This document shows, piece by piece, positions 5,674 through 63,001 of a DNA stretch of 64,000 nucleotides (positions are counted from its first letter, which is position 1; each line of letters begins with the position of its first letter). This DNA is from Minisyncoccota bacterium. GTDB taxonomy: Bacteria; Patescibacteriota; Minisyncoccia; Phycocordibacterales; DATDWN01. The notes under the pieces are model-generated. The model did no database searches. It had not been told where the DNA came from and saw nothing but the letters and a program-made list of their open reading frames with translations. Location: positions 2,369 through 66,368 of the forward strand of contig JBAZZC010000006.1 in the NCBI GenBank assembly GCA_041658985.1. Direction: 5' to 3'. Made by a program: the position numbers and the translations under genes.

Positions 5674-5778
5674 TAAAATCTAGAATTTCTATTGATTTTT
5701 ATTAAGAAGATGACCTCACCACACGCCGGAGTGTTGTAGTGCGTGCGATGAGGCCATTTTCTCTACAAGAACTGGGGG

Positions 5779-8386: not shown

Positions 8387-8409
8387 TCTCAAATTTTAAA
8401 TAATATTTT

Positions 8410-8576
8410 AGACACGTATAAATCACTGGTGTGATTTTACTATGCTCGTCAATCAAGAAAACAATCTTCCTCAGTACTGGCCCTCTCGCAAACTCCTCGT
8501 TGAGTACAACTTCGTCAAACAGTGCTTCGGGCTGGCGTACTTCGTCGTTGTTTTCTAATTGACTGTGCAATGTCTA
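8410..8576 (-). repeat. Copy 1 of a duplicated ~160-nt GC-moderate structured element (candidate ncRNA or MITE)
   Basis: ~90% identical to 47493-47646 on the opposite strand, with one 19-vs-10-nt indel. Terminal complementarity GTCAATTAGAAAACAA / TTGTTTTCTTGATTGAC. Confidence 0.5.
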
Positions 8577-8628
8577 AAATATCACTTAAAATTTTGCGAA
8601 CGGTTAGGTTCACTGTTATACTGACAAT

Positions 8629-9210
8629 ATGAAAAAAATTGTTTTTGATATTGAAACAAAAAATATATTTCAGGATGTCGGGTCAAGTGACCCAGTTGAT
8701 TTAGATATCTCCCTAGTCGGAGTTTATGATTATGAAACAAATAAGTACGACAGTTTCCTGCAAGAGGATTTTGATAAGCTGTGGGACCTAATAAAAAAGA
8801 CAGATATGTTTATAACCTTCAACGGTGACCATTTTGATATTCCCCTGCTCAATAAATACTATAAAAAAGCCGGTCACGGAGACCTCTCAAAAATTCGTTC
8901 GCTGGATTTGCTTAAAGAAATCAGAAACTGCTACGGTCGGAGAATGAAACTAGACCAAATAGCCCAAGGCACTTTCGGAGCTGGAAAAAGCGGAGATGGA
9001 CTAGAGGCGGTAGCCTGGTGGCGAAACGGAGAAATAGAGAAAATAAGAAAATATTGTCTGGACGACGTCCGTCTGACCAAAGATGTCTACGAGTATGCCC
9101 TAAAAAATAAGAAACTAATCTTCAAAGAAGGGCCTTTTACAAAAGAAATCAAATTGGATACCAAACATTGGGAGCCAGTATCAGAAGTTAAAACGCAGAG
9201 TTTGTTTTAG
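8629..9210 (+). CDS. Stand-alone DnaQ/PolB-exonuclease-like 3'-5' exonuclease (RNase H fold)
   Basis: Exo I motif FDIET and Exo II-like motif ITFNGDHFDIP. TTGCGA-17-TATACT promoter upstream. Confidence 0.5.
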   Translation: MKKIVFDIETKNIFQDVGSSDPVDLDISLVGVYDYETNKYDSFLQEDFDKLWDLIKKTDMFITFNGDHFDIPLLNKYYKKAGHGDLSKIRSLDLLKEIRNCYGRRMKLDQIAQGTFGAGKSGDGLEAVAWWRNGEIEKIRKYCLDDVRLTKDVYEYALKNKKLIFKEGPFTKEIKLDTKHWEPVSEVKTQSLF

Positions 9211-9235
9211 GTAAAAATCTTTTTTTCATCACAAT

Positions 9236-9370
9236 CTTTTCAGAGCAACCCTAAGAAATTCCAGCGAATTTCTTAAGGCCAGTCCTCACCCTCTATCTGT
9301 CAAGAGCCCTCGCTTTGCTCGGGTCTATGACAGAACCATGCTAGAGGGTTGCGGGGTCTCTGAAAAAATT
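9236..9370 (+). ncRNA. Candidate structured RNA element (multi-stem, strand uncertain)
   Basis: Closing helix CAGAGCAACCCT...AGGGTTGC(GGGGT)CTCTG. Internal perfect hairpin AAGAAATTC-CAGC-GAATTTCTT and nested stem CTGTCA...TGACAG. No family recognised. Confidence 0.25.
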
Positions 9371-14288: not shown

Positions 14289-14486
14289 CTATTCAGCGAC
14301 ACAAACTGGAACTGGAGGTAAGACAACCGCCTTCCAGACCCCTTCTTGGTGATTGAACTCCATATCCTCAAGAAGTTTCCAGCACTCATCACAGTAGCGA
14401 TACCCCTGAAAAATGACACGAACTTTCTTTCCGTGGCAGAATGGGCAACGCCTCTCGCCATCCTTGATATACGAAGCTTCAATCAT
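14289..14486 (-). CDS. Small C4 zinc-ribbon protein co-transcribed upstream of the helicase-nuclease
   Basis: CPFCHG...YCDEC. RBS GGAGGT lies 4 nt before the ATG at 14486. Palindrome ATGACCATGGGGTCAT sits just upstream. 18 nt separate it from the helicase start. Confidence 0.5.
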   Translation of the reverse strand: MIEASYIKDGERRCPFCHGKKVRVIFQGYRYCDECWKLLEDMEFNHQEGVWKAVVLPPVPVCVAE

Positions 14487-14562
14487 GTGACCTCCAAAAA
14501 ACAAATATGACCCCATGGTCATTTCGCATTTATAGTAACATTTTATATTTTTTTACACAAAC

Positions 14563-14620
14563 AAAAAAGCCTCGTGCCGGTGGGGATGCCCACATTGGGC
14601 ACCCCACCTACACGAGACCG
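14563..14620 (-). terminator. Rho-independent terminator of GC-island gene 1
   Basis: GGTGGGGATGCCCA-CAT-TGGGCACCCCACC stem followed by a U-run on the minus strand. Confidence 0.6.
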
Positions 14621-14622
14621 CG

Positions 14623-15240
14623 TCAGAAGTTCAGCCTTAGACCGGCCGAACCCCCAACTTTCTTCCCTTCCTTGACCGGCGCGACCCAGAGGTCGAACGG
14701 ACCGAACGACCTCTCAATGTACGGCCCGGTTCCGACGAACCGAGTGGAATTGGCCCCGAGCTTCCAGGAGCCGAGACGGACGGTGCCGGTGTACCGATAC
14801 CAGTATCCGCTCCCGCCGTTCTCATGTGAACTCTCAAGAGTCACTCGACCCTTGCTAATCCACAAGTTGCCTGCGAAGCGAAGTGGCTTCCTGTTGGTCT
14901 CCGCACCAACCAAGAAAGCCACCTGGATGGAGTCAACGGGGGCAAACGTCAGACCGACGAGCCCTTCGGCCCATTTCTCGGTTGACCACTGTCCCCCATC
15001 CTCTGTCCACTGGTTCGTGCCCCACCCCCACACGGCCCACCCGAACTTGCCCTTGATGGGGCCTTCCAGATAGACCGTAACCGAGGGGCTCGTATGCCCC
15101 CCAACGTACTCGTTGTACGATTCGACGAATCGAGTTGGCTCCTGCGCCGACGCCGGCACAAGTGAGGCCACCATCATGACGAGCAAGATGATGACCGTGA
15201 CACCGAAAGTCCGCGGACGAGTATCCAGTGTGATGTCCAT
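14623..15240 (-). CDS. GC-rich secreted protein, possibly an outer-membrane beta-barrel (signal peptide, C-terminal ...LRLNF)
   Basis: 205 aa with an SP ending ASAQ. It has alternating hydrophobic beta-strand-like segments and a C-terminal Phe. ~62% GC with its own promoter and terminator. Confidence 0.5.
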   Translation of the reverse strand: MDITLDTRPRTFGVTVIILLVMMVASLVPASAQEPTRFVESYNEYVGGHTSPSVTVYLEGPIKGKFGWAVWGWGTNQWTEDGGQWSTEKWAEGLVGLTFAPVDSIQVAFLVGAETNRKPLRFAGNLWISKGRVTLESSHENGGSGYWYRYTGTVRLGSWKLGANSTRFVGTGPYIERSFGPFDLWVAPVKEGKKVGGSAGLRLNF

Positions 15241-15254
15241 TGAAACCTCTTTGG

Positions 15255-15330
15255 AATCGGCTGGGGCGACATGCCCCTCTGCTCACAACAATAGCACCAA
15301 AATATTAAATTGTCAATATAAAATTTTGAT
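15255..15330 (-). promoter_or_regulatory. Promoter/5'UTR module of island gene 1 (TTGACA-17-TATTGT, then a GGGGC..GCCCC hairpin)
   Basis: 40 nt are nearly identical to 16085-16125 upstream of the paralogue. Confidence 0.5.
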
Positions 15331-15333
15331 ACG

Positions 15334-15384
15334 AAAAAAGCCCCGTGCCTGCGGAACCCGAGATGGGTTCCGCCGCACGAGACC
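15334..15384 (-). terminator. Rho-independent terminator of GC-island gene 2
   Basis: GCGGAACCC-GAGAT-GGGTTCCGC followed by a U-run. The outer flanks are shared with the terminator at 14563-14620. Confidence 0.6.
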
Positions 15385-15389
15385 GCGCA

Positions 15390-16064
15390 CTACTTGGTCG
15401 ACGCCCAGTGGACACCGACGTAGTACATGTACTGCTTCGCGTTCCCGTTCCGAGAGACGCTCCCGGTAACCGAGAAGTTGTTGTTGACCCTCTGGGTGTA
15501 CGACACCCCAGGGATCCGGTTCAGCGGGTCGTCGAGGAAGTTGAGAAGCGTGTAAGTCAAGCCGACAGGCCCGATATTGGCGTTGAAGCTCGCCAAGTAC
15601 CCAATCCACAGCTTCTCGGGGTTAACCCCGGAGCGCCAGTTCCTCGGCTCGACGCCGATGAACAGACACGGCCACTGAAAAGTCCCTACCGAGACCTCCT
15701 GCCCGGCAATCTTGCCGACCGGCAGACTCATATTCAGGTAGGGACCGACCCACGGAGAGCCCTGGAAGTGCCCAGCCGAACCGGCGACGGTTCCTGTGAG
15801 CTTTCCGAGCTTGAACTCGGGCCCCCAGACAACCCACGCCTGCTCCTGCTGAAATGCCACCTCGAGAAGATGGCCCCGGCCGTTCTTGAAGTCGACGATC
15901 CCGGTTATGCCAGAGCTGATCGGATCCTCACCGGCGGACACCGTGGCACCGGACAGCTTGTAGCCGCCGGGGTCCGCAGGCGGAGTCGCCGTCTGTGCCT
16001 GCGCCGCGAACGGCGTGAGACAGAGGACAAACAGGATGGATGCGACGAGTGTCTGTCTCTTCAC
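15390..16064 (-). CDS. Paralogous GC-rich secreted protein (GTG start, signal peptide ...AAQAQ)
   Basis: Start moved to the GTG at 16064, behind the duplicated promoter module. N-terminal signal peptide; overall similar architecture to 14623-15240. Confidence 0.45.
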   Translation of the reverse strand: MKRQTLVASILFVLCLTPFAAQAQTATPPADPGGYKLSGATVSAGEDPISSGITGIVDFKNGRGHLLEVAFQQEQAWVVWGPEFKLGKLTGTVAGSAGHFQGSPWVGPYLNMSLPVGKIAGQEVSVGTFQWPCLFIGVEPRNWRSGVNPEKLWIGYLASFNANIGPVGLTYTLLNFLDDPLNRIPGVSYTQRVNNNFSVTGSVSRNGNAKQYMYYVGVHWASTK

Positions 16065-16084
16065 GTTGGTCCTTTCGGTATCTT

Positions 16085-16140
16085 GGAGGCGACATGCCCC
16101 TCTGCTCACAACAATAGCACCAAACATCCATTTTGTCAAT
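16085..16140 (-). promoter_or_regulatory. Duplicated promoter/5'UTR module of island gene 2
   Basis: TTGACA...TATTGT plus the same GC hairpin as upstream of gene 1. Confidence 0.45.
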
Positions 16141-16202
16141 ATATCTCCTCCCCCCACCTTCACACAATAAAACCTTTAATCTCGTTGAACTAAAATCTTT
16201 TT

Positions 16203-16310
16203 GGAACATCCGCAGGCTTCCAGCATAGTTCTGTCAAGGCATCCCTTCTTGACAGATGGAAGCCGAGGACATGAACAAACCCAAGCGCTGGCTTGGGTTT
16301 GTGTTTTCAA
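16203..16310 (+). ncRNA. Candidate small RNA: nested 5' hairpin plus an intrinsic terminator, with no upstream plus-strand gene
   Basis: GCTTCCA..CTGTCAAG..CTTGACAG..TGGAAGC followed by CAAACCCAAGC-GCTG-GCTTGGGTTTG and TGTTTT. Confidence 0.2.
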
Positions 16311-27328: not shown

Positions 27329-27907
27329 TTAATATTTTCGGATTACTCCGCGTACTATCGCTGCTACCTTCAGGTCATACTGTGGATAAATTGGTGAATA
27401 GTTTTTATTGGCCGGTTTTAGATAAACTAATCCCCCCTTCTTTTTAAAATACTTCATAGTCCAACCCCCGTCAACTTCTGCAATAACAATATCTCCATCC
27501 TTTGGGTCTCCCTTTCTTTCCACCAGAACCAAGTCACCCTCTTTTATACCCTCATCTATCATTGAGTCACCTTTTACTTCTAATAAATAAGTTCCCTCTT
27601 TATTACCCACAAGATATTCATCTAAGCTCAAAGAATCAAATATGTTGGCATCAACAGAGGTTGGAATACCCGCCTCAACCAAACCAAGAAGTGGAATCTC
27701 TCCAAAAATTTTCATGGGGGTCAGTCTCCCGCTTGAGTCCTTATCAACCACCTCATCCTCAACCAACTTATTGATTAATTTGTAAACAGCATTTTTTGAC
27801 CTGAATCCAACAAGAGACATTATTTCCTTGTACCCAGGCATTCTCCGATTTTTTTGATAGAAAGAGATAATTTTATTTTTTTGTGAGATGTATTTTTCTT
27901 CAGACAT
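27329..27907 (-). CDS. lexA: LexA repressor (S24 peptidase)
   Basis: N-terminal wHTH, cleavage site near AG, and the catalytic Ser and Lys in GDSM...KGDPKDGDIVIAEVDGGWTMKYFKK. Confidence 0.85.
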   Translation of the reverse strand: MSEEKYISQKNKIISFYQKNRRMPGYKEIMSLVGFRSKNAVYKLINKLVEDEVVDKDSSGRLTPMKIFGEIPLLGLVEAGIPTSVDANIFDSLSLDEYLVGNKEGTYLLEVKGDSMIDEGIKEGDLVLVERKGDPKDGDIVIAEVDGGWTMKYFKKKGGLVYLKPANKNYSPIYPQYDLKVAAIVRGVIRKY

Positions 27908-28339: not shown

Positions 28340-29340
28340 CATATCCCTTGACAACATAATTACAGGGTATATACTTAGGGTATGAAAACAAACAAATACA
28401 CAATACAAGACTTAAAAAACCAGTTCCCCACAGACGAGGTTTGTGCGGAATACATCTTTGACTCCCTACATAGCCGTAAATGCTCATGTGGTGGCGAATA
28501 CAAGCAATTAAAGGGTCGTAGACAGTTTCAATGCTCTAAATGTAGGTATCAGGTAGCCCCGACTGTTAACACCATATTTCACAAATCACCCACCCCACTA
28601 ACTCTCTGGTTTCATGCTTTGTTTGTTTTCTCTACTTCAAAGTCTGGTCTTTCTGCAAAGAACCTAGAAAGCCAAATTGGTGTAACCTATAAATGTGCTT
28701 GGAGGATGTTAAACCAGATTAAGAAGGCACTAAAACAAAGTGGCGATAAATTAAAAGGTGTTGTAGAAACTGACGCTGGATATTTTGGTGGTGTAAAAAA
28801 CGCAGGTAGAAACAATGAGAACTTAAGTGAATCTATGAGAGCTAAAGCTGTTGTTTTAATAGCAGTAGAAAGAAATGGAAACATTAAAGCTAAAATAAGC
28901 GAAAACGCCACAGCAGACAGCCTTGAAAAGTTTGTGAGAGATAGTGTAGAAGAAAAGGCAATATTACTATCTGATAACGCAAGGGGTTTTAACAGATTAA
29001 ACAAAAACTATAGGCATTTCTCAGTCAATCACAGTAAAGGCGAATATGTGAGATACAAAACTCATGTAAACACAGTAGAGACATTCATTTCTCACCTAAA
29101 ACGAAGTATCGGGGGGACATTTAAGAGCGTTTCAAAGAAACACCTGCAGTCTTACCTAGACGCTTTTGTCTTTCATTATAACAATCGGCACAACGACAGA
29201 GAGAGGTTTTCTTCTTTGCTCGGTGCTGTATTACAGTCTTAAGGGTAAATAGGAAACTTGACTTTTTCATATAAATAGTATAAACATTATAACTTATACA
29301 CAGGTATTTTGCATCCGTAGGTAATAGTGATATAATTACA
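28340..29340 (+). mobile_element. Approximate extent of the IS1595-family insertion (ends not resolved)
   Basis: A ~20-nt imperfect direct repeat, AGTAGGTAGATGTGGATAA and CGTAGGTAATAGTGATATAA, flanks the transposase. The right flank resembles a family-1 arm. No clean terminal inverted repeat or target-site duplication was found. Confidence 0.3.
28382..29242 (+). CDS. IS1595-family (ISXO2-like) transposase
   Basis: N-terminal zinc ribbon (CSCGG...CSKCRY) plus a DDE domain. TTGACA-16-TATACT promoter ends 6 nt before the ATG, suggesting a leaderless mRNA. Confidence 0.8.
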   Translation: MKTNKYTIQDLKNQFPTDEVCAEYIFDSLHSRKCSCGGEYKQLKGRRQFQCSKCRYQVAPTVNTIFHKSPTPLTLWFHALFVFSTSKSGLSAKNLESQIGVTYKCAWRMLNQIKKALKQSGDKLKGVVETDAGYFGGVKNAGRNNENLSESMRAKAVVLIAVERNGNIKAKISENATADSLEKFVRDSVEEKAILLSDNARGFNRLNKNYRHFSVNHSKGEYVRYKTHVNTVETFISHLKRSIGGTFKSVSKKHLQSYLDAFVFHYNNRHNDRERFSSLLGAVLQS

Positions 29341-29394: not shown

Positions 29395-29484
29395 TGCGGA
29401 GGATACAGGGATTGAACCTGTGTAACGGTATTAAGCGTGTTGTCGGTGTCGTAGACCGATGCATTACCACTCTGCCAATCCTCC
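29395..29484 (-). tRNA. tRNA gene: anticodon loop CUACGAC gives ACG (Arg) tentatively, with an atypically long ~21-nt variable region
   Basis: Reverse complement has GGAGGAT acceptor stem, AGTGGTAA D-loop, TCGGT/ACCGA anticodon stem, ACAGG-TTCAATC-CCTGT T-arm and ATCCTCC 3' acceptor. No encoded CCA. Confidence 0.5.
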
Positions 29485-31336: not shown

Positions 31337-31375
31337 CCGCCTACACAACCCGTTGTGTGAGGCGGGTTTGTGTTT
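31337..31375 (+). terminator. Intrinsic terminator of the 31096 cassette
   Basis: 13-bp stem with a 3-nt loop, followed by a T-run. Confidence 0.6.
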
Positions 31376-31862
31376 ACACAATGTCACCTATTATTGGATT
31401 AACCAAGTCAGCATAGTCAGTTGATTTCATTCCGATAGAAAAACTTTTGTCTCCTGCATTAAAAATAATTTTTTCTTGCTGTAACAATCCCCTATCAACA
31501 TAAATAGATAGGTTAAACAAGTTCCCAAAGGGCGGAACTCCCCCAAGCAGTACCCCATTTGTGATTTTCAAAACCTCTTCTTCTGTGGCAAATCTGATAT
31601 CAGACAGACCAAACTGTTCTTTTATTTTTGCTGTATCAAATTTTTTACTGCCTTGTACAACAAACATTACAAAAAGTTTGCCAACGCCAGGCTTTTTTAC
31701 CCGAGTAATAAGAGCTTTTGCTCCCTGGTCTATTGTGTAGCCAGTACGAACCCTTGAGGCTTCCTCACTTGTCCTCACCGGCTCGTGTTCAAAGGTCTCA
31801 AACCAATAACCACTGTTTGTTAAAATTCTCTTTATTATCTCCGTTAGCTGGTGGTAAATCAC
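31374..31862 (-). CDS. YbaK/ProX-type aminoacyl-tRNA deacylase
   Basis: 162 aa with the YbaK fold motif (...GGVPPFGN...). Confidence 0.65.
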   Translation of the reverse strand: MIYHQLTEIIKRILTNSGYWFETFEHEPVRTSEEASRVRTGYTIDQGAKALITRVKKPGVGKLFVMFVVQGSKKFDTAKIKEQFGLSDIRFATEEEVLKITNGVLLGGVPPFGNLFNLSIYVDRGLLQQEKIIFNAGDKSFSIGMKSTDYADLVNPIIGDIV

Positions 31863-44615: not shown

Positions 44616-46868
44616 TTATTTGGCTATTGTCACTGCTTGGTCAAAAGCCACAGACAAAAGCTTAGACCCGCCACCCATACCCATAGTTACACCATATAGA
44701 ACTCCGGCGCGAGACATTGTTTCGCGGTTGTGGGTAATTAAAATTAGTTGAGAATATTTTGAAAGATTTTCTATCATATCTCCGTATTTTTTTGAATTTG
44801 CTTCATCCAGCGCTGCGTCTGTTTCATCTAGAATAATAAACGGTGGTGGATTAACTTGAGAAACAGCAAAAAGTAAGGCGATGGAGGTCAGGGCCCTTTC
44901 GCCACCAGAGAGCATCATAAGTCCTTTTATTTTTTTCTTTGGAAGATTCACCTCTATATCTATTCCTTCCTCTACTTCCTCTGGAACTGTATCCTCCAGA
45001 GTTGGGTCTTCCTCGAGAAGCAAATCATCTACTTCTTTCTTTTTGTGCTTCGGCGGTGCCACGACGGAAAGCCTTGCTTCTCCCCCCCCAAACATAACAG
45101 CAAAATATTCTTTAAACTGAATGTTTATTTTATCAACTCCATTTTTAAACTCTGTTGAAAGTCGCACATCTAAATCAGCAATTAGTTCTGTCAGAGACTG
45201 TGCTGATTTTTCCAAATCAGTTAATTCTTTTTCCAAAAAGGCATCCCTTTCACTCACTTCCGTATATTCCTTTAAAACGTCAGTACCTTCTGTCCCTCCA
45301 GCGTCCTCAAGACGGATTTTTGTTTTCTCTATTTTGCGACGACGTTCTTCCTGTGCACTTCTTGGTTCGTCAAAATCAAATAAAAGAGACTGAAACTGTA
45401 AGACGTGAGTGCCAAGCATCATACCAAGTTCCGTCAGTTCTCTTTTGAAATCCTCACGAACCAGACGAAGTGTCTCTTCCTCTGCTTTTAAACTGTGTAG
45501 TTTGGAGCGAACTTCTTGCGATTCGGACATAATTCGAAAAACCGCTTTCTCAGCATCACGATTTGAATCTTTTTCTTTCTCTATTTTATTTTGCAGGGCT
45601 GTATATTGGTTAGTTAATCCATTTTCTTTATTCTTTATCTCTTCCAGAGACTCTTCAATTTGCCTCTTTGAGTTTTTAAGATTTTCAATATCTTTGGTGG
45701 CCTCAGAAAGAAGTGAGCTGTCAACCTTTTCCTTGTTTTTGTCCACAAATCTCGAGAGCAATTCCCCAACCTCGTCCAGTGCCGTCAGTAACTTCTCCAA
45801 ACTGCCATCTCTTTTTGCCTCTTTTATTTTTTCTTCAATTTGAGAAGATAGTGTTTCCACAGAAACTAAAGTTACGGTCTTGTGCTCTAAGGAATGTGCT
45901 ATTTCCTCCTGTTTTTTGACCATCCTGACAAGTGAAGAAATCTCGCCATCAAGTTTGCCGGCCTCACGAAACAAACCATCTTTTTCTTCACGAATTTTTT
46001 GTAATTCTCTCTCCAGTGTAATAAGTTCTTCCGATGTGGCATCTTTATGTTTACTACTATCTAAAATATGTTTAGCCTCTTCTAGTTCTGTATTGAGCTC
46101 TTTTTCTTTTTCTAGCAATGGCAACTTTTGACTTTCGACTTTTGACTTTTGACTACTAATATATTCTTCTTCTCGTCTGCAATATTCAAGAGCATCTTTT
46201 TGTAATTCATCGCGAAGCTCAATTGATTTTTGAACTTTTTCAACTTGTTTTTTCAGGAAGCGAATGTGTGGCATTATTTCTCGACGAAGTGATTGGGTTT
46301 GAGTAATGTTTTCTCTTGTCTTTTCCAACTTTCTTTCACTTTCTTGTTTTTTATATTGATACATCTTGAGACCCAAGGCGTCCTCTATCATTGATTTTCT
46401 TTCTTTTATATTTGCATTGAGAATTCTGTCCGCTTCACCTTGGGAAATAATATGATGCCCCGATGAGCCAATATGGGCAGAAGCCAAAAGTTCCACCACA
46501 TCACGAAGGCGCACCTGTGAGCCATTTATTATGTACTCATTTACCGAATCACGATGAACTACTCGTTCAATGGTGACTGTTTCATAATCAATCGGGAGAA
46601 ATTTACTACTATTATCAAAGATGATTTTTACACTAGCTCTGTTTGCCCTCGGTGTATCATTTGAGCCATTCCAGATTAAATCTTCACCCTTTTTTCCACG
46701 AAGAGACTTAATGGATTGTTCACCCAAAACGAAACTAAAGGCTTCAGCCACATTTGACTTACCAGAACCATTTGGCCCAACAATAGCCGAAATTTTAGAC
46801 GTGAACTGAAGCTCGCTCTTTTTAGCAAAGGATTTAAACCCGTTTAGTTCAATACTTTTTAAATACAT
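44616..46868 (-). CDS. smc: Short SMC-like chromosome-segregation ATPase (750 aa, coiled coil, no recognisable hinge)
   Basis: Walker A GPNGSGKSN and C-terminal signature LSGGERALTSIALLFA with Walker B ILDETDAALD. Confidence 0.75.
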   Translation of the reverse strand: MYLKSIELNGFKSFAKKSELQFTSKISAIVGPNGSGKSNVAEAFSFVLGEQSIKSLRGKKGEDLIWNGSNDTPRANRASVKIIFDNSSKFLPIDYETVTIERVVHRDSVNEYIINGSQVRLRDVVELLASAHIGSSGHHIISQGEADRILNANIKERKSMIEDALGLKMYQYKKQESERKLEKTRENITQTQSLRREIMPHIRFLKKQVEKVQKSIELRDELQKDALEYCRREEEYISSQKSKVESQKLPLLEKEKELNTELEEAKHILDSSKHKDATSEELITLERELQKIREEKDGLFREAGKLDGEISSLVRMVKKQEEIAHSLEHKTVTLVSVETLSSQIEEKIKEAKRDGSLEKLLTALDEVGELLSRFVDKNKEKVDSSLLSEATKDIENLKNSKRQIEESLEEIKNKENGLTNQYTALQNKIEKEKDSNRDAEKAVFRIMSESQEVRSKLHSLKAEEETLRLVREDFKRELTELGMMLGTHVLQFQSLLFDFDEPRSAQEERRRKIEKTKIRLEDAGGTEGTDVLKEYTEVSERDAFLEKELTDLEKSAQSLTELIADLDVRLSTEFKNGVDKINIQFKEYFAVMFGGGEARLSVVAPPKHKKKEVDDLLLEEDPTLEDTVPEEVEEGIDIEVNLPKKKIKGLMMLSGGERALTSIALLFAVSQVNPPPFIILDETDAALDEANSKKYGDMIENLSKYSQLILITHNRETMSRAGVLYGVTMGMGGGSKLLSVAFDQAVTIAK

Positions 46869-50909: not shown

Positions 50910-51248
50910 TCAAGAACCTGTTGTTGTCTTGGCCTGCAGTTCAACGAGGCCACAGGTGCATGGCTTGGCCTCGTGAACAACGACACCACCATGACCGATG
51001 ACGGCCGGAACCATGGTGCACCCGTCTGTGTGCTGGATGTACGGCTTCAGCGCCTCGACCTTCGCACGAAGGTCAGCGAGTTCGCGAACCGCAAGGACAG
51101 CAGGCTCGAGGACTTCTTCCTGCTCTCTGGTGTAACCATCACCACCCCCGGTCCTGAGGTAATGAATTTTGATCAGGATTTTCTGCAACACCCGATCAAG
51201 AGAGTCGACGAGCTTTCTTCCTTTGACCAAATCACTCAGGTCGTCCAT
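50910..51248 (-). CDS. GC-rich cassette gene a (113 aa) with a CxC motif near the C-terminus
   Basis: RBS GGGAGG. N-terminus ...LVKGRKLVDSLD... parallels ...LVTGRKLEIPLD... of gene b. Its stop lies 12 nt upstream of gene b's start codon. Confidence 0.4.
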   Translation of the reverse strand: MDDLSDLVKGRKLVDSLDRVLQKILIKIHYLRTGGGDGYTREQEEVLEPAVLAVRELADLRAKVEALKPYIQHTDGCTMVPAVIGHGGVVVHEAKPCTCGLVELQAKTTTGS

Positions 51249-54641: not shown

Positions 54642-55028
54642 TTACGCCATGGCTGAAATGGAAGAGTTGTATGGTTGTGCTAATTTAAATGTTTTGAATT
54701 TATTCCTTATTTTTATCTCCTCAAGGTAGCTTAGAAATTGTTTTGGCAGTGGTGACGGCCCGACCCAAATACTCTTTTGTATCATGACATATCCAAATTT
54801 AATTAAATGTCGCCTAAACCAATCTCTTTCTTTTTTTAGCTCGTGTGGAATATCATACATGACGATAAGATTTTTTGGTAAACTTTTATTGAAAGGAGAC
54901 TGGAAAGAAATATGATATGGGTTTCTTTTTTTTATTACTGATTTGTTGTTTTGTTTTTTAGTAGATACTGGTAAACCAAACATATTTACTTTCACACCTT
55001 TATAATTAAAAATTTTTTGCTTACCCAT
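54642..55028 (-). CDS. Solo Cas2/VapD-superfamily protein with a ~45-aa Lys-rich N-terminal extension
   Basis: LIVMYDIPHELKKERDWFRRHLIKFGYVMIQKSIWVG parallels the Cas2 pattern (ILMFDMP..ERK.YRKFRKFL..GF.M.Q.SVY). No cas1 or CRISPR array nearby. Confidence 0.45.
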   Translation of the reverse strand: MGKQKIFNYKGVKVNMFGLPVSTKKQNNKSVIKKRNPYHISFQSPFNKSLPKNLIVMYDIPHELKKERDWFRRHLIKFGYVMIQKSIWVGPSPLPKQFLSYLEEIKIRNKFKTFKLAQPYNSSISAMA

Positions 55029-55050
55029 ATATTCTATTATACACTACTAT

Positions 55051-58077: not shown

Positions 58078-60180
58078 TTAGATATCAATATTGGCGCGAG
58101 TGGCATTAGACTGGATAAATGACTTCCTGGCTGGAACGTCAGTTCCCATGAGGACATCAAAAACCTTGTCTGCAGAAACAGTATCGTCAACTACAACTTG
58201 TTTTAGGATTCTTCTTGCTGGGTCCATTGTTGTCTCCCACAATTCTTCCGAGTTCATTTCTCCAAGACCTTTGTAACGCTGAATATTTATTCGTCCCGAT
58301 GCCGATGTTGCTTTCTTTGATTGCTTTCCCTCTTTTTCCGATTCATCCTCCTCTAGTTCACTTTCAACCTCGGCACTGGTATTGTTTTCAATCTCGTCAA
58401 TTTCGGCAATAGGACGACCAACAATTTTTGCTTTTTCTTCATCAGAATATGCGTAAAACACTTCCTTACCTTTTTTTATTTTATAAAGTGGCGGTTGTGC
58501 AATATAAACAAACCCACCATCAATAAGCGGTCTGAAATATCTGTAAAGCAAAGTCAAAATAAGTGTGCGAATATGCGCACCATCAACATCAGCATCCGTT
58601 GCTATGATTATTTTGTGATAGCGAAGTTTAGAAACATCAAATGTGTCGCCTATTGCCGTCCCCAAAGCAATAACTAAATTCCTGATTTGCTCTGATTCAA
58701 GAAGTCTATCCAGTCTTGCTCTCTCAATATTTAAAATTTTTCCTCGGAGTGGAAGTATGGCCTGTGTTCGTCTGTCTCGCCCAGTCTTTGCCGTACCACC
58801 AGCAGAATCTCCTTCCACAATAAACAATTCTGAATCTTCTGCGCTTTTACTTTGACAATCCGCAAGTTTTCCTGGAAGGGTCATGCCTTCCAAAGCGCCC
58901 TTTCGTAAAACAGAATCTTTGGCTGCCTTTGCGGCTTTTCTGGCCTTCAGGGCAATAACTACCTTATTGATTATAGCCTTAGCATCATCGGGATTTTCTT
59001 CTAGAAAATAGGTAAAGGCTTCGGAAAAAACTGTATTAACAGAACTTTGTGCCTCCACAGAGCCTAATTTTGCCTTTGTTTGACCCTCAAATTGAACTTC
59101 ACGAAGCATAACTGAAATAACTGCAGTCAAGCCTTCCAGCACGTCTTCCCCTGTAAAATTATCCTCCGAATCTTTAATTAAATTATTTTTTCTACCATAT
59201 GTATTTAATGTTCTAGTCAGTGCTGTTTTAAAACCAGTAACATGTGTTCCGCCTTCGGAGTTATAAATATTATTCGCAAAAGGTAAAAGCCTACAAGAAA
59301 TATCATCTACATATTGAAGAGATATTTCCACTGATTCATATTCGTTGGTTTTCTTTTCTATGTAAAAAACATTTTTATGAATCGGTTTTTGGTCACTGTT
59401 GTAAAATTTTACAAGAGACAGAAGACCCCCCTCAAAATAAAACGTCATTGAAGGAATCTCTAGTCCCAGTTCAGTTATATTAAAAACTTCATCTTCTTTT
59501 ATTTTTCCCGTAAAGCCTCTGGCATCATTTACTACAATTCTCAAACCCTTAACAAGATATGCCTGTTGACGAAGATGTTCTACGATATTATTAAAATCAA
59601 ACTCAACAATTGGAAAAATTGATTTATCTGGCTCAAATATAACAATCGTTCCGTTTTGCTTAGTCGTTCCGATTTTTTTTACAGCCGCTTTCTTTTTTCC
59701 CTGAGAATATTCTTGCATGTAAATTCCTCCATCTTTATATACTGTAACTTTACAATAAATAGAAAGTGCATTTACAACAGAAGCTCCCACACCGTGAAGA
59801 CCTCCAGAGACCTTATAGCCACCATCCTCACCCCCAAACTTACCTCCGGCGTGAAGTGTGGTCATAATTGTCTCAAGTGCAGAAACTTTCGTCTGTTTAT
59901 GAATGTCCACCGGAATACCACGACCGTTGTCTGTAACACGCACACGATTTCCGGGTAAAAGAGTAACTTCAATGTGGTTGGCAAAACCTCCCATCGCCTC
60001 GTCGCGAGAGTTGTCAAATATCTCCGTTATAAGGTGATGAAGTCCATCGGGCCCTGTTGTACCTATGTACATACCTGGGCGCTTCCTGACGGGCTCTAGG
60101 CCCTCTAAAATGGTGATTGCATCTGCCCCGTAAGAGTCTGTCGTAGCTTTCGCCTTATATGTCTTTGGGTTCTTGGCCAT
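58078..60180 (-). CDS. gyrB: DNA gyrase subunit B
   Basis: GHKL ATPase (HAGGKFGG), TOPRIM (EGDSAGG) and a GyrB C-terminal tail. 700 aa. Confidence 0.95.
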   Translation of the reverse strand: MAKNPKTYKAKATTDSYGADAITILEGLEPVRKRPGMYIGTTGPDGLHHLITEIFDNSRDEAMGGFANHIEVTLLPGNRVRVTDNGRGIPVDIHKQTKVSALETIMTTLHAGGKFGGEDGGYKVSGGLHGVGASVVNALSIYCKVTVYKDGGIYMQEYSQGKKKAAVKKIGTTKQNGTIVIFEPDKSIFPIVEFDFNNIVEHLRQQAYLVKGLRIVVNDARGFTGKIKEDEVFNITELGLEIPSMTFYFEGGLLSLVKFYNSDQKPIHKNVFYIEKKTNEYESVEISLQYVDDISCRLLPFANNIYNSEGGTHVTGFKTALTRTLNTYGRKNNLIKDSEDNFTGEDVLEGLTAVISVMLREVQFEGQTKAKLGSVEAQSSVNTVFSEAFTYFLEENPDDAKAIINKVVIALKARKAAKAAKDSVLRKGALEGMTLPGKLADCQSKSAEDSELFIVEGDSAGGTAKTGRDRRTQAILPLRGKILNIERARLDRLLESEQIRNLVIALGTAIGDTFDVSKLRYHKIIIATDADVDGAHIRTLILTLLYRYFRPLIDGGFVYIAQPPLYKIKKGKEVFYAYSDEEKAKIVGRPIAEIDEIENNTSAEVESELEEDESEKEGKQSKKATSASGRINIQRYKGLGEMNSEELWETTMDPARRILKQVVVDDTVSADKVFDVLMGTDVPARKSFIQSNATRANIDI

Positions 60181-60424
60181 GATTTTCTGGTATTTTTCTT
60201 TAATTATATAGTATGTATTATAGCAAAAAGTGGAGTCAGAAGCTAGTCTTTTTTGGTATTATTTTGCGTCTTTGTGTGGATATGTTAGACTTATTTTATG
60301 AGCAAAAATCTACAGCAAAACACAGTTGGATTTTTCTTCTTTAGCACTCAATCCCGAGAGCCGATGTTTGTGCTGTAGAAACCCCAAAAACTTACAACCT
60401 AAACACCAGCTCTCGAGGCTGGTG

Positions 60425-60570
60425 TTTACCCGCTACACTAACTTTACCATTGTTTTTGTATTCTAATTCAAAATGTTGTTGAATAGTGTTTTTTTCATGA
60501 GACTACTGAAAATAATAGTAGTATTCTGTTAGAAAAACAGAATGATGGTAAAGTTAGTGTGCGGGTTTAC
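60425..60570. repeat. Paired-arm inverted-repeat element, family 1 copy D (between divergent gyrB and pheS)
   Basis: Arms TTTACCCGCTACACTAACTTTACCATTG and AATGATGGTAAAGTTAGTGTGCGGGTTTAC. The arm-specific variants CCCGC and TTTACCAT co-vary. Confidence 0.6.
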
Positions 60571-60602
60571 TTTTTAATAATTTTTAACTAAACTATAAAA
60601 AC

Positions 60603-61418
60603 ATGAAAAAAACCATCTATAAAGTGCCAACAGACGAACAAGATAAGCTCTTAAAAGAGTTGGAAGGCAGGAGTGATACAGAGGCAGTACGAATAAAACA
60701 CTACTTAGCCATGGAGGACTTGTCTCGAACAAAAGGCAACCCTTTATGTGAAATTGTAGAAAAAGTAACAAATTTACCGAATTTGAAGGATTTTGACCAC
60801 ATTAATATCCCAGAAGTTATACCAACAAGTATAATCTTTGATTTGTTCGGTTTTTCGGCTGATCATCCAGCTCGAAGTAAATCTGACACATATTATGTAG
60901 ACGAGAAAAATGTTTTGCGTACGCACGATACGGTTATGTGGTATTACTATTTCAACTTACCAGAAGTAAAAGAAAAAATAGCAAGGGGTGAGGATTTGGG
61001 AGTCTTCTGTTATGGTAAAGTCTACCGTAAGGATGAGATAGACCGAAAACACATGAATATTTTCCACCAAATGGGCGCTCTTTATCTTGTGCCAGACAGT
61101 AAAAGAACGGTACCGTTTGATGAATTAAAAAAGGTGTTGGCAGATATTGTAGAAACAGTTTTCGGAAAAGAGATAAAATATCGTTTCTCTCCTGAGACAT
61201 TCCCCTACACAGACCCATCGACTGAAGTCGAAGTTGAAATAAATAACGAATGGTTTGAGATACTAGGTAGTGGTATGCCAAAAAAGGAGGTTTTGAAAAA
61301 TTTTGGTATTGAAGGTTATAACGGTTGGGCTTTTGGATTTGGTCTGGAAAGACTAGCTATAATTGACATGGAATTACCTGATATTCGCCGCTTTGGTCAA
61401 AAGACCCAAGGGTTATAA
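60603..61418 (+). CDS. pheS: Phenylalanyl-tRNA synthetase catalytic core of mitochondrial/monomeric type (no N-terminal coiled coil), truncated by a frameshift
   Basis: HPARSKSDTYYV, LRTH, GKVYRKDEIDRKHMNIFHQ, motif 2 YRFSPETFPYTDPSTEVEVEI and motif 3 AFGFGLERLAII. Ends ...DIRRFGQKTQGL*. Confidence 0.8.
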   Translation: MKKTIYKVPTDEQDKLLKELEGRSDTEAVRIKHYLAMEDLSRTKGNPLCEIVEKVTNLPNLKDFDHINIPEVIPTSIIFDLFGFSADHPARSKSDTYYVDEKNVLRTHDTVMWYYYFNLPEVKEKIARGEDLGVFCYGKVYRKDEIDRKHMNIFHQMGALYLVPDSKRTVPFDELKKVLADIVETVFGKEIKYRFSPETFPYTDPSTEVEVEINNEWFEILGSGMPKKEVLKNFGIEGYNGWAFGFGLERLAIIDMELPDIRRFGQKTQGL

Positions 61419-61741
61419 AGCAATTAAAGCTTGGCCAAAAATTCGTAGAGGTCAGTAAATATCCACCTATCGTCCGTGATATTTCATTTGTTGTCAAAAA
61501 TGATTTCATACCAAATGATTATTTTGACCTGGTTAGAGAAACAGCCCCCAATCTTGTTGAAGAAGTTCATCTGTTGGACAAATATGAAAATGAAGAAAAA
61601 TTCGGAAAAGAGATGGTAAGTTATGCTTTTAGAATTACCTACCGCTCCACAGAAAGAACTCTTGCTTCCGAGGAAATAGATGTGATTCACAAAAAACTTG
61701 AACAGGAAACTACAAGAATATTCAACGCAAAGGTTCGTTAA
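61403..61741 (+). pseudogene. Frame-shifted continuation encoding an FDX-ACB (ferredoxin-fold anticodon-binding) domain. Together with 60603-61418 it would form a ~379-aa monomeric PheRS.
   Basis: The -1 frame reads DPRVIKQLKLGQKFVEVSKYPPIVRDISFVVKNDF...RITYRSTERTLASEEID, which is typical of FDX-ACB. The junction is at the A-run CAAAAGACCC near 61398-61404. One extra A would restore DIRRFGQKDPRVIKQL, matching the PheS C-terminal consensus. Confidence 0.55.
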
Positions 61742-61753
61742 ACAACATTAAAA

Positions 61754-63001
61754 ATGCCTGATATTTCAAATATAATTACATATATATTTTTATTTATATC
61801 TCTTTACTTTGAGGTCTTTATCCTTATTACTTACTTTGAAAACCGTCTCGAAATAAAAAGTGAGGAAAATTTTATAACCCTCGGAGTAAAAAAATATCCA
61901 ACAGTTACAATAATAGTTCCGTGTTGGAATGAAGAATTTACTGTTTCAAAAACTATACATTCTTTGCTCTCTCTGGATTATCCAAAAAGTAAGCTGAAAA
62001 TAATGGTTATAGATGATGGCTCCACAGACAAAACTTGGGAGAAAATCCAAAAGTTCAAAAATAATTCGCAGGTTGAAATATACACCAAGACCAATGGGGG
62101 TAAATACACCGCATTAAACTTTGGAATCTCAAAAATGAGTAGTGATTTGGTGGGTTGTCTCGACGCGGATTCATATGTTCATAAAGATGCACTAAAAAAT
62201 ATTGTGGTTTATTTTCAAGACAAAGAAACAATGGCCGTTGCTCCATCGGTAAGGTTGTGGCAACCAAAAGGCCCTCTTCAACTTTTGCAAAAAGTAGACT
62301 ATGCTTTTGGAATATTTAACAGAAAGATGTTTCATTATTTGCAAGCTGTCTATATTACACCAGGACCGTTCTCCATATTCAGACTTGATGTCTTCAAAAA
62401 ACTCGGAGGGTACAGACACGCTCATAATACAGAAGATATAGAGATTGCCCTCAGAATGCAGAAGAACGGTTACAAAATTGTTCACGCTCATAATGCTATG
62501 GTTTATACAGTCGCTCCAAACAGTTTAAGAAAATTACTCAAACAAAGGACCCGATGGGTTTATGGTTTTATTAAAAACGCTGGTGATTACAGACAAATGT
62601 TTTTCAAAAGAAAATACGGAAATCTCGGAGTTTTTATTTTGCCTATGGCTGCGATTTCAATTATTTCTATCTTAAGTATTGCCAGTATCTCAATCATTAG
62701 TGTATTAAATCTTTTATCGAACAAGTACTTGGAAATACAAGCTGTGGGATTAAGTTTTCATTGGCCATTTAGCAGGTTTGAGTGGTTTTATGTAAACACA
62801 GAAATCATCTCAATTGTTGCAATAATAACCACTGTCGGAACAATAACAATGATAGTAATCTCAAAAAGAATGGCTGAAGGAAAATTCAATCTTGGAATGG
62901 ACTTGATATATTTTCTAACATTGTATATGTTTATAGCGCCCTTGTGGATTGGTAAAGCAGTCTACAATGTCATATTCAGCATTAAAGCCTCCTGGAGATA
63001 A
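61754..63001 (+). CDS. Family-2 glycosyltransferase (membrane-embedded, cellulose/chitin-synthase-like topology)
   Basis: GT-A motifs (DDGSTD, DAD, QRTRW-like QxxRW) with N-terminal and C-terminal TM segments. Confidence 0.75.
   Translation: MPDISNIITYIFLFISLYFEVFILITYFENRLEIKSEENFITLGVKKYPTVTIIVPCWNEEFTVSKTIHSLLSLDYPKSKLKIMVIDDGSTDKTWEKIQKFKNNSQVEIYTKTNGGKYTALNFGISKMSSDLVGCLDADSYVHKDALKNIVVYFQDKETMAVAPSVRLWQPKGPLQLLQKVDYAFGIFNRKMFHYLQAVYITPGPFSIFRLDVFKKLGGYRHAHNTEDIEIALRMQKNGYKIVHAHNAMVYTVAPNSLRKLLKQRTRWVYGFIKNAGDYRQMFFKRKYGNLGVFILPMAAISIISILSIASISIISVLNLLSNKYLEIQAVGLSFHWPFSRFEWFYVNTEIISIVAIITTVGTITMIVISKRMAEGKFNLGMDLIYFLTLYMFIAPLWIGKAVYNVIFSIKASWR

What the first reader, a model, noticed from the sequence alone, without database searches (positions are those of the whole stretch)
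60603..61741. Mitochondrial-type monomeric PheRS (catalytic core plus FDX-ACB anticodon-binding domain) interrupted by a 1-nt frameshift in an A-run
The pheS ORF lacks the bacterial N-terminal coiled-coil and ends 10 residues after motif 3. The next 113 codons in the -1 frame encode a typical FDX-ACB domain (KYPPIVRDISFVV...), which in bacteria normally sits at the PheT C-terminus and in mitochondria is fused to the alpha chain. Inserting one A at CAAAAG (~61400) restores DIRRFGQKDPRVIKQLKLGQKF, matching the PheS C-terminal consensus DIRLFxENDLRFLxQF. The result would be a ~379-aa single-chain PheRS. Either this is a homopolymer sequencing error masking an intact monomeric PheRS, which is rare or undescribed outside organelles, or it is a genuine frameshift (pseudogene or programmed).
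Basis: partly seen in the sequence, partly recalled or inferred. Interest (0 to 1): 0.8.

Follow-up and report, generated by a model that had tools for sequence, protein, structure and literature searches.

The report
Single-chain bacterial PheRS gene, one T missing
This gene encodes a compact, mitochondria-like one-piece phenylalanine-tRNA ligase that is common and highly conserved in Paceibacteria (CPR bacteria); the break is a single missing T that a near-identical sister assembly does not have, so the frameshift is trivial, but the enzyme family is barely described.

Summary
ORF 60603-61418 holds a PheS-type class II core. The next frame, up to 61741, holds an FDX-ACB anticodon-binding domain. 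The frame break is not in the CAAAAG run. It is one missing T between 61389 and 61390 (CGC C^G CTT TGG), inside Leu263. A sister assembly matches the window at all but 8 SNP positions over all 64,000 bases. It carries that T and an intact 379-aa gene, and this is the only indel between the two. All 80 best GTDB relatives are also in frame. The frameshift is therefore an assembly or consensus error, or a very recent strain variant. It is not a programmed shift.

The repaired protein is a mitochondrial-type single-chain PheRS. Its best solved match is human FARS2 over its full length (TM 0.8). All four residues that read anticodon base G34 are conserved. It is as conserved as GyrB and sits in conserved housekeeping synteny. 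At least 550 GTDB species carry it. It passes no curated NCBIfam cut-off, and I found no paper describing it. I could not test whether it is the only PheRS in these genomes.

The parts
60603..61389 (+). 5' part of the gene in its original frame: start codon, short helical N-terminal region (residues 1-37), class II PheS-type catalytic module (motifs 1-3), through R262 and the first base (C) of Leu263
   Evidence: (PF01409 residues 38-274)
61389..61390 (+). Site of the single-base deletion. The sister assembly and the repaired gene read C-T-G (Leu263); the window reads C-G.
61390..61741 (+). 3' part of the gene, now in the -1 frame. It covers the last base of codon 263, LWSKDPRVIKQLKLGQKF linker, the FDX-ACB anticodon-binding domain (residues 285-379 = window 61454-61738) and the stop codon at 61739-61741.
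   Evidence: (PF03147, E 1.3e-21)
61390..61418 (+). Out-of-frame tail of the truncated ORF as it stands (RFGQKTQGL, stop at 61416-61418).
60181..60602 (.). 422-bp intergenic region between divergent gyrB and the PheRS gene. It presumably holds the promoter. No Rfam leader such as a T-box was found, and no consensus promoter was called upstream of the start codon.
58078..60180 (-). gyrB, the conserved upstream neighbour (part of the synteny dnaE - thrS - gyrB - PheRS - GT2)
61754..63001 (+). Family 2 glycosyltransferase, the conserved downstream neighbour

Best explanation
The locus is one gene for a 379-aa single-chain phenylalanyl-tRNA synthetase of the mitochondrial architecture. It has a short helical N-terminus, a class II PheS-type catalytic module and a C-terminal FDX-ACB (B8-type) domain that reads G34 of the tRNA-Phe anticodon. 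It has no coiled-coil, no beta subunit and no B3/B4 editing domain. By analogy with human mtPheRS it would work as a monomer. It activates Phe in a pocket lined by F200, Y202, T203, A243 and the motif-3 glycines. It binds the anticodon through D326, Y328, S340 and R379. It swings the anticodon-binding domain from a closed to an open state to charge tRNA-Phe, without proofreading. In this lineage of Paceibacteria it is most likely the housekeeping PheRS, possibly the only one. In this particular assembly the gene lacks one T of codon Leu263 (window 61389/61390). That deletion splits the gene into a 271-aa ORF and an orphaned anticodon-binding domain. It is an assembly or consensus error, or a very recent strain-level variant, not a feature of the gene. 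Shown: the architecture, the fold, the residue conservation, the position of the deletion and the existence of an intact allele. Inferred: Phe specificity, monomeric action, and being the sole PheRS.
For: Position of the deletion and the intact allele:
- Intact orthologues place the gap at 61389/90.
- The sister assembly k141_991391 covers all 64,000 bases of the window. It differs at 8 SNP positions and this one indel.
- Its 379-aa protein P0121 equals the T-repaired window gene exactly.
- 80 of 80 GTDB relatives are single, full-length and in frame. Of the 120 best database hits, 119 are intact two-domain proteins.

Architecture and fold:
- Pfam finds PF01409 plus PF03147.
- The best solved sequence match is human mtPheRS (E 7e-55, 190 bits), against bacterial PheS alpha (2e-33, 119 bits) and PheT beta (2e-6).
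- The AF2 model has pLDDT 93.4 and pTM 0.89. Foldseek's best hits are 5mgh and 3cmq at TM 0.79-0.80 over about 386 columns. Bacterial PheS matches only the core, at TM about 0.53.

Function:
- The G34-recognition residues of hmPheRS (D364, F366, S375, R414; PMC7540514) map to D326, Y328, S340 and R379. These are invariant or at least 90% conserved in 120 homologues.
- Phe-pocket residues F232, F234, T235 and the E. coli A294 equivalent map to invariant F200, Y202, T203 and A243.

Housekeeping role:
- Identity to orthologues is 72/82/71%, against 75/82/71% for GyrB in the same genome pairs. ThrRS in two of those pairs is only 46% and 69%.
- The synteny dnaE-thrS-gyrB-PheRS-GT2 is conserved, next to tsf, rpsB, prfA and rpmE.
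- At least 550 GTDB species carry it.
- It occurs on chromosomes or contigs of about 0.67-0.83 Mb.
- A Paceibacterales bin with canonical PheS and PheT has no second PF01409 or PF03147 gene among its 866 genes.
- The CPR 43-marker set keeps PheRS alpha but has no PheRS beta.
Against: - I could not show that canonical pheS and pheT are absent from any genome that carries this gene. Only the 64-kb window, about 78 kb of the sister contig and 1.2 Mb of flanks could be checked.
- The protein is below the curated cut-offs of all three relevant NCBIfam equivalogs. Its nominally best hit is the 'PheS-related mystery ligase SrmL' model (224 bits against a cut-off of 300).
- Two polar pocket residues of hmPheRS are replaced family-wide: Gln124 by W113 and Glu159 by G158. 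Amino-acid specificity is therefore not proven.
- The nearest relative outside Paceibacteria (an Oligoflexia MAG) sits among genes unrelated to translation.
- A single-base deletion outside a homopolymer is not a typical short-read error, so the break could be a real allele.
Confidence: 0.6

Rival explanations
1. The protein is an accessory PheS-like paralogue, a 'mystery ligase' in the sense of NCBIfam SrmL. It coexists with a canonical (alpha-beta)2 PheRS and has another substrate or role. The frameshift could then be a real and tolerated loss in one strain.
For: The top NCBIfam model is NF051887 SrmL (224 bits), though below its cut-off of 300. The pocket is remodelled: Q124 to W113 and E159 to G158. 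The Oligoflexia relative P0135 lies in a context unrelated to translation. Some Paceibacteria do keep canonical PheS and PheT. Absence of PheST in carriers of this gene was not shown.
Against: Conservation is at the level of GyrB. The G34-reading residues are invariant. The synteny is housekeeping and conserved. The gene is present and intact in 80 of 80 GTDB species sampled, out of at least 550, in genomes of only about 0.7-0.8 Mb. The one fully tabulated genome with canonical PheS and PheT lacks this gene. The SrmL cut-off is not met.
Confidence: 0.2
2. The missing T is a genuine mutation in the sampled population. It would be a recent pseudogenisation or a strain-specific allele, not an assembly error.
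For: The site is not a homopolymer. The two assemblies also differ by real-looking micro-diversity, with 7 clustered SNPs at 1326-1380 in a surface-protein gene, so they sample slightly different populations. De Bruijn graph assemblers normally need read support for a path (my own knowledge).
Against: It is the only indel in 64 kb. The 113 downstream codons are identical to the intact allele. If the gene is essential, a fixed null allele is not viable. No other relative is broken.
Confidence: 0.4
3. Programmed -1 ribosomal frameshifting at CAA_AAG (61399-61404) joins the two ORFs.
For: A_AAG is a known -1 slip-prone site in E. coli (my own knowledge). It lies inside the 27-nt overlap before the 0-frame stop.
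Against: Every relative, including the same strain, is in frame. A slip at that site would yield RFGQ in place of the invariant LLWS. There is no heptameric slippery site and I did not look for a downstream stimulatory structure.
Confidence: 0.02

Closest known systems
Mitochondrial phenylalanyl-tRNA synthetase (human FARS2, yeast Msf1; TIGR00469 pheS_mito; 'PheRS-M' of AARS Online; PDB 3CMQ, 3TUP)
   Same: Both are single chains with a PheS catalytic module fused to an FDX-ACB (B8) anticodon-binding domain. Neither has a coiled-coil, a beta subunit or an editing domain. It is the best sequence and fold match over the full length. The linker motif is shared (DIRLLWSxDxRv against DIRLFWCEDERF). 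The G34-binding D, aromatic, S and C-terminal R are conserved. The predicted model resembles the closed form.
   Different: The gene is bacterial (a CPR chromosome with gyrB, dnaE, rpoBC). It is shorter (377-391 aa against about 415 mature residues) and lacks the insertion that splits the human alignment into two stretches. It scores 218 bits against the TIGR00469 cut-off of 258. It has pocket residues W113 and G158 in place of Gln124 and Glu159. In a crude NJ tree it falls in a sister clade, not inside the eukaryotic clade.
Bacterial heterotetrameric PheRS (PheS alpha TIGR00468 plus PheT beta TIGR00472)
   Same: The catalytic module is homologous to PheS (32-37% identity to E. coli PheS). The C-terminal domain is homologous to the B8/FDX-ACB end of PheT (TIGR00472 positions 692-798).
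   Different: It has no N-terminal coiled-coil (PF02912). It has no separate beta chain with B1-B7, including the B3/B4 editing site. It is below the TIGR00468 cut-off (173 against 237). No pheT is adjacent to it or anywhere in the DNA I could check.
NCBIfam NF051887 'PheS-related mystery ligase SrmL'
   Same: It has the same overall layout. The model aligns over residues 50-368, positions 16-344 of 349, and is nominally the best NCBIfam hit.
   Different: The score of 224 bits is below the curated cut-off of 300, so it is not a member. I found no literature on SrmL, so nothing about its function can be transferred.
Programmed -1 frameshift genes (for example dnaX A_AAA_AAG)
   Same: There are two overlapping frames and an A_AAG in the overlap.
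   Different: The frameshift is not conserved. The same strain and all relatives are in frame.

Membership tests
Mitochondrial-type single-chain PheRS (TIGR00469 / PheRS-M) | One polypeptide with a class II PheS catalytic module followed by a C-terminal FDX-ACB anticodon-binding domain | tested here: met
   Pfam PF01409 residues 38-274 plus PF03147 residues 285-379 on the repaired gene. The same holds in the intact allele P0121.
Mitochondrial-type single-chain PheRS (TIGR00469 / PheRS-M) | Curated model score at or above the TIGR00469 cut-off (258.35 bits) | tested here: not met
Mitochondrial-type single-chain PheRS (TIGR00469 / PheRS-M) | Full-length fold like human mtPheRS | tested here: met
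   AF2 pLDDT 93.4. Foldseek hits 5mgh and 3cmq at TMq 0.79-0.80, rmsd 3.1-3.3 A, about 386 columns.
Mitochondrial-type single-chain PheRS (TIGR00469 / PheRS-M) | Residues that recognise G34 of tRNA-Phe (hmPheRS D364, F366, S375, R414) | tested here: met
   They map to D326, Y328, S340 and R379, invariant or at least 90% conserved in 120 homologues.
Mitochondrial-type single-chain PheRS (TIGR00469 / PheRS-M) | Phe-binding pocket as in hmPheRS | tested here: inconclusive
   F200, Y202, T203 and A243 are conserved, but Gln124 is replaced by W113 and Glu159 by G158.
Mitochondrial-type single-chain PheRS (TIGR00469 / PheRS-M) | Active as a monomer, and the only PheRS of its compartment or cell | not testable with these tools
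   This needs biochemistry and whole-genome gene inventories. Only partial genome sequence was reachable.
Mitochondrial-type single-chain PheRS (TIGR00469 / PheRS-M) | Eukaryotic nuclear gene with an organellar product | tested here: not met
   The context is a bacterial CPR chromosome with rpoB, rpoC, rpoD, dnaG, dnaE and gyrB.
Bacterial PheS alpha subunit (TIGR00468) | Score at or above 237.45 bits, an N-terminal coiled-coil domain, and a partner pheT | tested here: not met
   172.9 bits. No PF02912. No PheT-like sequence outside the gene's own FDX-ACB in the window or in 89 related loci.
SrmL, PheS-related mystery ligase (NF051887) | Score at or above 300 bits | tested here: not met
   224.2 bits.
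Programmed -1 ribosomal frameshift | The frameshift is conserved among relatives and has a slippery site at the junction | tested here: not met
   The same strain and 80 of 80 GTDB relatives are in frame. The true junction c^g is not slippery.

The most novel reading that the evidence does not exclude
A large clade of Paceibacteria (at least 550 GTDB species) has replaced the universal bacterial (alpha-beta)2 PheRS with a 379-aa monomeric, editing-free enzyme of the mitochondrial architecture as its only PheRS. This bacterial lineage shares the alpha-core/B8 fusion with mitochondrial PheRS as a sister clade. The 'mitochondrial chimera' would then have been invented in bacteria, not in the eukaryotic host. 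The family-wide change of Gln124 to Trp and Glu159 to Gly may harden the pocket against Tyr and m-Tyr, in place of proofreading.
Probability: 0.55. Interest if true: 0.7.

Novelty: new variant of a known kind. Interest (0 to 1): 0.45.

Why it matters
The frameshift does not matter. It is a one-base difference between two assemblies of the same strain, and it should simply be repaired or flagged in annotation. NCBI currently lists a 271-aa 'hypothetical protein' for it.

The gene family may matter. A review of PheRS forms (PMC3275996) says the heterotetramer is conserved in all known prokaryotes and that the monomeric form is unique to mitochondria. Here the monomeric form is a slowly evolving, syntenic gene in hundreds of bacterial species with genomes of about 0.7-0.8 Mb. 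It is missed by all curated family models.

If it is their sole PheRS, three things follow:
- It is a clear case of genome streamlining of the translation apparatus, with more than 1,100 aa of PheS plus PheT replaced by 379 aa.
- It is a natural test of life without PheRS editing.
- It makes the origin of FARS2 testable by phylogeny.

It also bears on marker-gene sets that expect pheS and pheT in Patescibacteria.

Tried and rejected
1. Rejected: it yields RFGQ instead of the invariant LLWS, and the sister assembly shows that the missing base is a T 12 nt upstream.

2. Programmed frameshift. Rejected because the shift is not conserved.

3. An error-prone assembly. Rejected: there is only one indel in 64 kb against the sister contig.

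4. Finding canonical pheT or pheS in carriers of this gene.
- tblastn of E. coli PheT and PheS against the window, 9 contextual loci and 80 GTDB loci found only the fused gene.
- A PheT alignment (A5) built from mislabelled PLSDB chromosomes, and scanned against JGI metagenomes, returned only typical full-length PheT genes and no usable CPR seed.
- Supplement searches of CPR papers gave one informative genome, PMX_810_sub, which has the canonical pair and no fused gene. Otherwise they gave nothing.
- The Anantharaman 2016 marker table lists PheRS alpha only, with a count of 1 in the one Zambryskibacteria genome in the part I read. This is ambiguous, because it is unclear which gene type was counted.

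5. Looking up the window's own truncated protein on contigs. It is not on record.

6. A leader RNA or T-box upstream. There is no Rfam hit.

7. SrmL literature. None was found.

8. The NJ tree has no bootstrap support, one outgroup and mostly unnamed metagenomic sequences. I use it only as a hint.

Full report
**What is in the sequence**

On the + strand an ATG-initiated ORF runs from 60603 to 61418 (271 aa). The frame one base behind it is open from about 61390 to a TAA at 61739-61741. That frame reads ...WSKDPRVIKQLKLGQKFVEVSKYPPIVRDISFVV...AKVR.

A joined translation carries two Pfam domains:
- tRNA-synt_2d, the class II 'F' core: residues 38-274, E 2.9e-54.
- FDX-ACB: residues 285-379, E 1.3e-21.

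It has no N-terminal PheS coiled-coil domain.

**Where the frame actually breaks**

Alignment of the DNA with two intact orthologues instead opens the single-base gap between 61389 and 61390, in gatattcgcc^gctttgg.

All close homologues read DIRLLWS(E/D/A/K)D(P/E/K)RV at this point. Human mitochondrial PheRS reads DIRLFWCEDERF. Putting a T after 61389 gives GAT ATT CGC CTG CTT TGG TCA AAA GAC = DIRLLWSKD. That destroys L263, L264, W265 and S266, which are invariant or at least 90% conserved in 120 homologues.

The decisive evidence is a cluster mate of the truncated protein. P0121 (379 aa; NCBI MFA6415722.1, locus tag WCW47_03095, 'Candidatus Paceibacterota bacterium') is letter-for-letter the T-repaired protein. 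Its contig is ENA ERZ27249449 k141_991391 (235,949 bp).

I fetched the stretch of that contig that matches the window, in four overlapping pieces, and compared it with the whole window:
- All 64,000 bases of the window are covered.
- There are 8 SNP positions: seven clustered at 1326-1380 and one at 51022.
- There is exactly one indel, the T missing at 61389/61390.

The break is therefore a non-homopolymer single-base deletion inside codon Leu263 (CTG), and an intact allele exists in the same strain-level population.

**Is the break biology or artefact?**

- The 80 best loci among at least 550 matching GTDB species representatives each give a single full-length in-frame match (79 complete; L058 is cut by its contig end).
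- 119 of the 120 best protein hits are intact two-domain proteins of 375-451 aa. The exception is the window's own truncated product, P0049.
- The 113 codons downstream of the break are identical to the intact allele.

A programmed frameshift is thus excluded for practical purposes. A slip at A_AAG would also give the wrong, non-conserved peptide.

The window's assembly is not generally indel-prone, with one indel in 64 kb. The clustered SNPs suggest that the two assemblies sample slightly different populations, so a real and very recent allele cannot be excluded. Without reads I put an artefact at about 55% and a real variant at about 40%. If the gene is essential, a fixed null allele would not be viable, which favours the artefact or a minor allele.

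**What the intact gene encodes**

Sequence comparison with solved structures:

| Match | E-value | Bits | Coverage |
|---|---|---|---|
| Human mitochondrial PheRS (5mgu, 3cmq) | about 1e-54 | about 190 | both domains |
| Best bacterial PheS alpha chain | 2e-33 | 119 | core only |
| Bacterial PheT beta chains | 2e-6 or weaker | 30 or less | last ~90 residues |

An AlphaFold2 model of P0121, built with 120 homologues, is confident (mean pLDDT 93.4, pTM 0.89). Its best Foldseek matches are the closed form of human mtPheRS (5mgh, 3cmq; TM 0.79-0.80, rmsd about 3.2 A, about 386 columns). Bacterial PheS matches only the core, at TM about 0.53.

Residue mapping through the HMMER alignment, checked against 120 homologues:
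- The four residues that read G34 of tRNA-Phe in the human enzyme are D364, F366, S375 and R414 (PMC7540514). They correspond to D326, Y328, S340 and the C-terminal R379. All are invariant or at least 90% conserved.
- The aromatic pair and neighbour of the Phe pocket (F232, F234, T235) and the size-determining Ala (E. coli A294) come from PMC3275996. They correspond to invariant F200, Y202, T203 and A243.
- Two polar residues that hydrogen-bond the hydroxyl of m-Tyr in the human enzyme are replaced family-wide: Gln124 by W113 (invariant) and Glu159 by G158 (at least 90%).
- The 'MW' signature is shared with the nearest outgroups (P0132, P0135, P0137, P0138), which keep an Asp at the second position.

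I read this as a more hydrophobic pocket that might discriminate against Tyr and m-Tyr in an enzyme with no editing domain. That is speculation. It also leaves some room for an altered substrate.

**Evidence that it is a housekeeping enzyme**

- Between the window and three relatives, identity is 72%, 82% and 71%. GyrB in the same genome pairs gives 75%, 82% and 71%. ThrRS in two of those pairs gives only 46% and 69%.
- The neighbourhood dnaE - thrS - gyrB - PheRS - GT2 glycosyltransferase is conserved, with tsf, rpsB, prfA and rpmE nearby.
- In a library of 1.84 billion representatives at 50% identity, the whole Paceibacterial family collapses into essentially one cluster. Only 192 clusters reach E 1e-30 or better. 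By my scaling of the solved-structure scores to this library's size, canonical PheS falls below that level, so I take these clusters to be the fused, mitochondrial-like superfamily.
- Carriers include records labelled Zambryskibacteria, Taylorbacteria, Kaiserbacteria, Colwellbacteria, Nomurabacteria, Jorgensenbacteria and Minisyncoccia. They also include chromosome-scale records of 808-829 kb.

**Is it the only PheRS?**

I could not settle this.
- No PheT-like or second PheS-like sequence exists in the window or in 1.2 Mb of flanks from 80 species; the called genes on the sister-contig pieces I fetched show none either.
- One Ca. Paceibacterales bin has its whole 866-gene annotation table held as text. 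It has canonical PheS (with the N-terminal domain) and PheT, and no second PF01409 or PF03147 gene. This fits mutually exclusive distribution, but it is a single genome.
- The 43-marker set that Anantharaman et al. used for CPR keeps 'PheRS alpha' and has no 'PheRS beta'. The authors say markers were dropped because many CPR lack them or have divergent versions. That the parent list contained the beta subunit is my recollection, not something I checked.
- Attempts to obtain a Paceibacterial PheT seed failed.

I estimate 60-70% that this is the sole PheRS in its carriers.

**Comparison with known families**

For the intact protein, NCBIfam gives the following scores:

| Model | Score (bits) | Curated cut-off (bits) |
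|---|---|---|
| SrmL 'PheS-related mystery ligase' (NF051887) | 224 | 300 |
| pheS_mito (TIGR00469) | 218 | 258 |
| pheS (TIGR00468) | 173 | 237 |

It is a member of none of them, which explains why NCBI names these proteins 'hypothetical protein'.

It works like mitochondrial PheRS and shares that enzyme's defining fusion. It differs in being bacterial and shorter, in lacking the insertion between motifs 2 and 3, and in its pocket.

A crude neighbour-joining tree rooted on E. coli PheS groups the Paceibacterial family with a few other metagenomic or bacterial sequences, including an Oligoflexia MAG protein. That group is sister to the clade that holds the eukaryotic mitochondrial enzymes, such as S. 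osmophilus Msf1, Salpingoeca and Aspergillus. The tree has no support values and mostly unnamed tips, so it is only a lead.

**Literature**

Eight full-text searches and several targeted reads found no description of a bacterial single-chain PheRS. A 2010 review states that the heterotetramer is conserved in all known prokaryotic species and that the mitochondrial enzyme is the only monomeric class II example (PMC3275996). AARS Online and the 2023 NAR paper by the same group list PheRS-M without mentioning bacteria in the passages I read. The library is incomplete, so absence there is not proof.

**Verdict**

The frameshift part of the finding is ordinary and its location was mis-assigned. The architecture part is right and points to a widespread, uncharacterised bacterial branch of the mitochondrial-type PheRS. 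I call it a new variant of a known kind. Interest is moderate overall, and higher if whole-genome inventories confirm that it replaces PheS and PheT.

Noticed in passing
window 14450-16250: A GC-rich island of about 1.8 kb (55-65% GC against a window mean of 38.7%) lies between a UvrD/PD-(D/E)XK helicase-nuclease gene and rpoD. Its overlapping ORFs on both strands have no Pfam hit, and there is no Rfam family hit. It is identical in the sister assembly. It could be a large structured RNA or a foreign insert.
   Followed up: partly
window 29396-29484 (-): tRNA-Arg(ACG) is 88-89 nt long. Rfam aligns the 71-position tRNA model across 88 bases, which implies an insertion of about 17 nt, either a long variable region or an intron.
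   Followed up: no
window 31374-31862 (-): A free-standing 162-aa YbaK/ProX-type aminoacyl-tRNA editing domain (PF04073 tRNA_edit). This is of interest in a genome whose PheRS has no editing domain, although this family is known for ProRS-related trans-editing (the known role is my own knowledge).
   Followed up: no
window 1326-1380: Seven SNPs against the sister assembly cluster within 55 bp of the gene for a 589-aa Ig-like/peptidoglycan-binding surface protein (274-2043). The rest of the 64 kb has one SNP. This is a localised hypervariable spot or a recombination tract.
   Followed up: no
window 54642-55043 (-): A small ORF with a Cas2-like/PaaX_M domain lies between dnaE and thrS. I did not look for a CRISPR array.
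   Followed up: no
window 44616-46868 (-): The SMC-like protein is only 750 aa, with the SMC_N model spanning residues 2-730, which is short for SMC. It is the same length in the sister assembly, so it is not a truncation artefact.
   Followed up: no
window 28382-29242 (+): An IS1595-family DDE transposase lies next to the long tRNA-Arg and a LexA-like S24 peptidase gene (27329-27907).
   Followed up: no
L003-L006, positions 4491-5735 (L003 coordinates): The closest relative (81% identical PheRS) has a 414-aa ThrRS without the N-terminal tRNA_SAD editing-associated region. The window's ThrRS is 585 aa and has that region. Editing-domain content of aaRS genes therefore varies between close Paceibacteria.
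   Followed up: no
L009 (GCA_019694465.1, JAIBBV010000034.1) 8001-9245: An Oligoflexia MAG encodes a 414-aa fused PheS-core/FDX-ACB protein (41% identical, with the same 'MW' pocket signature) among genes unrelated to translation. It is a possible paralogue case worth comparing.
   Followed up: partly
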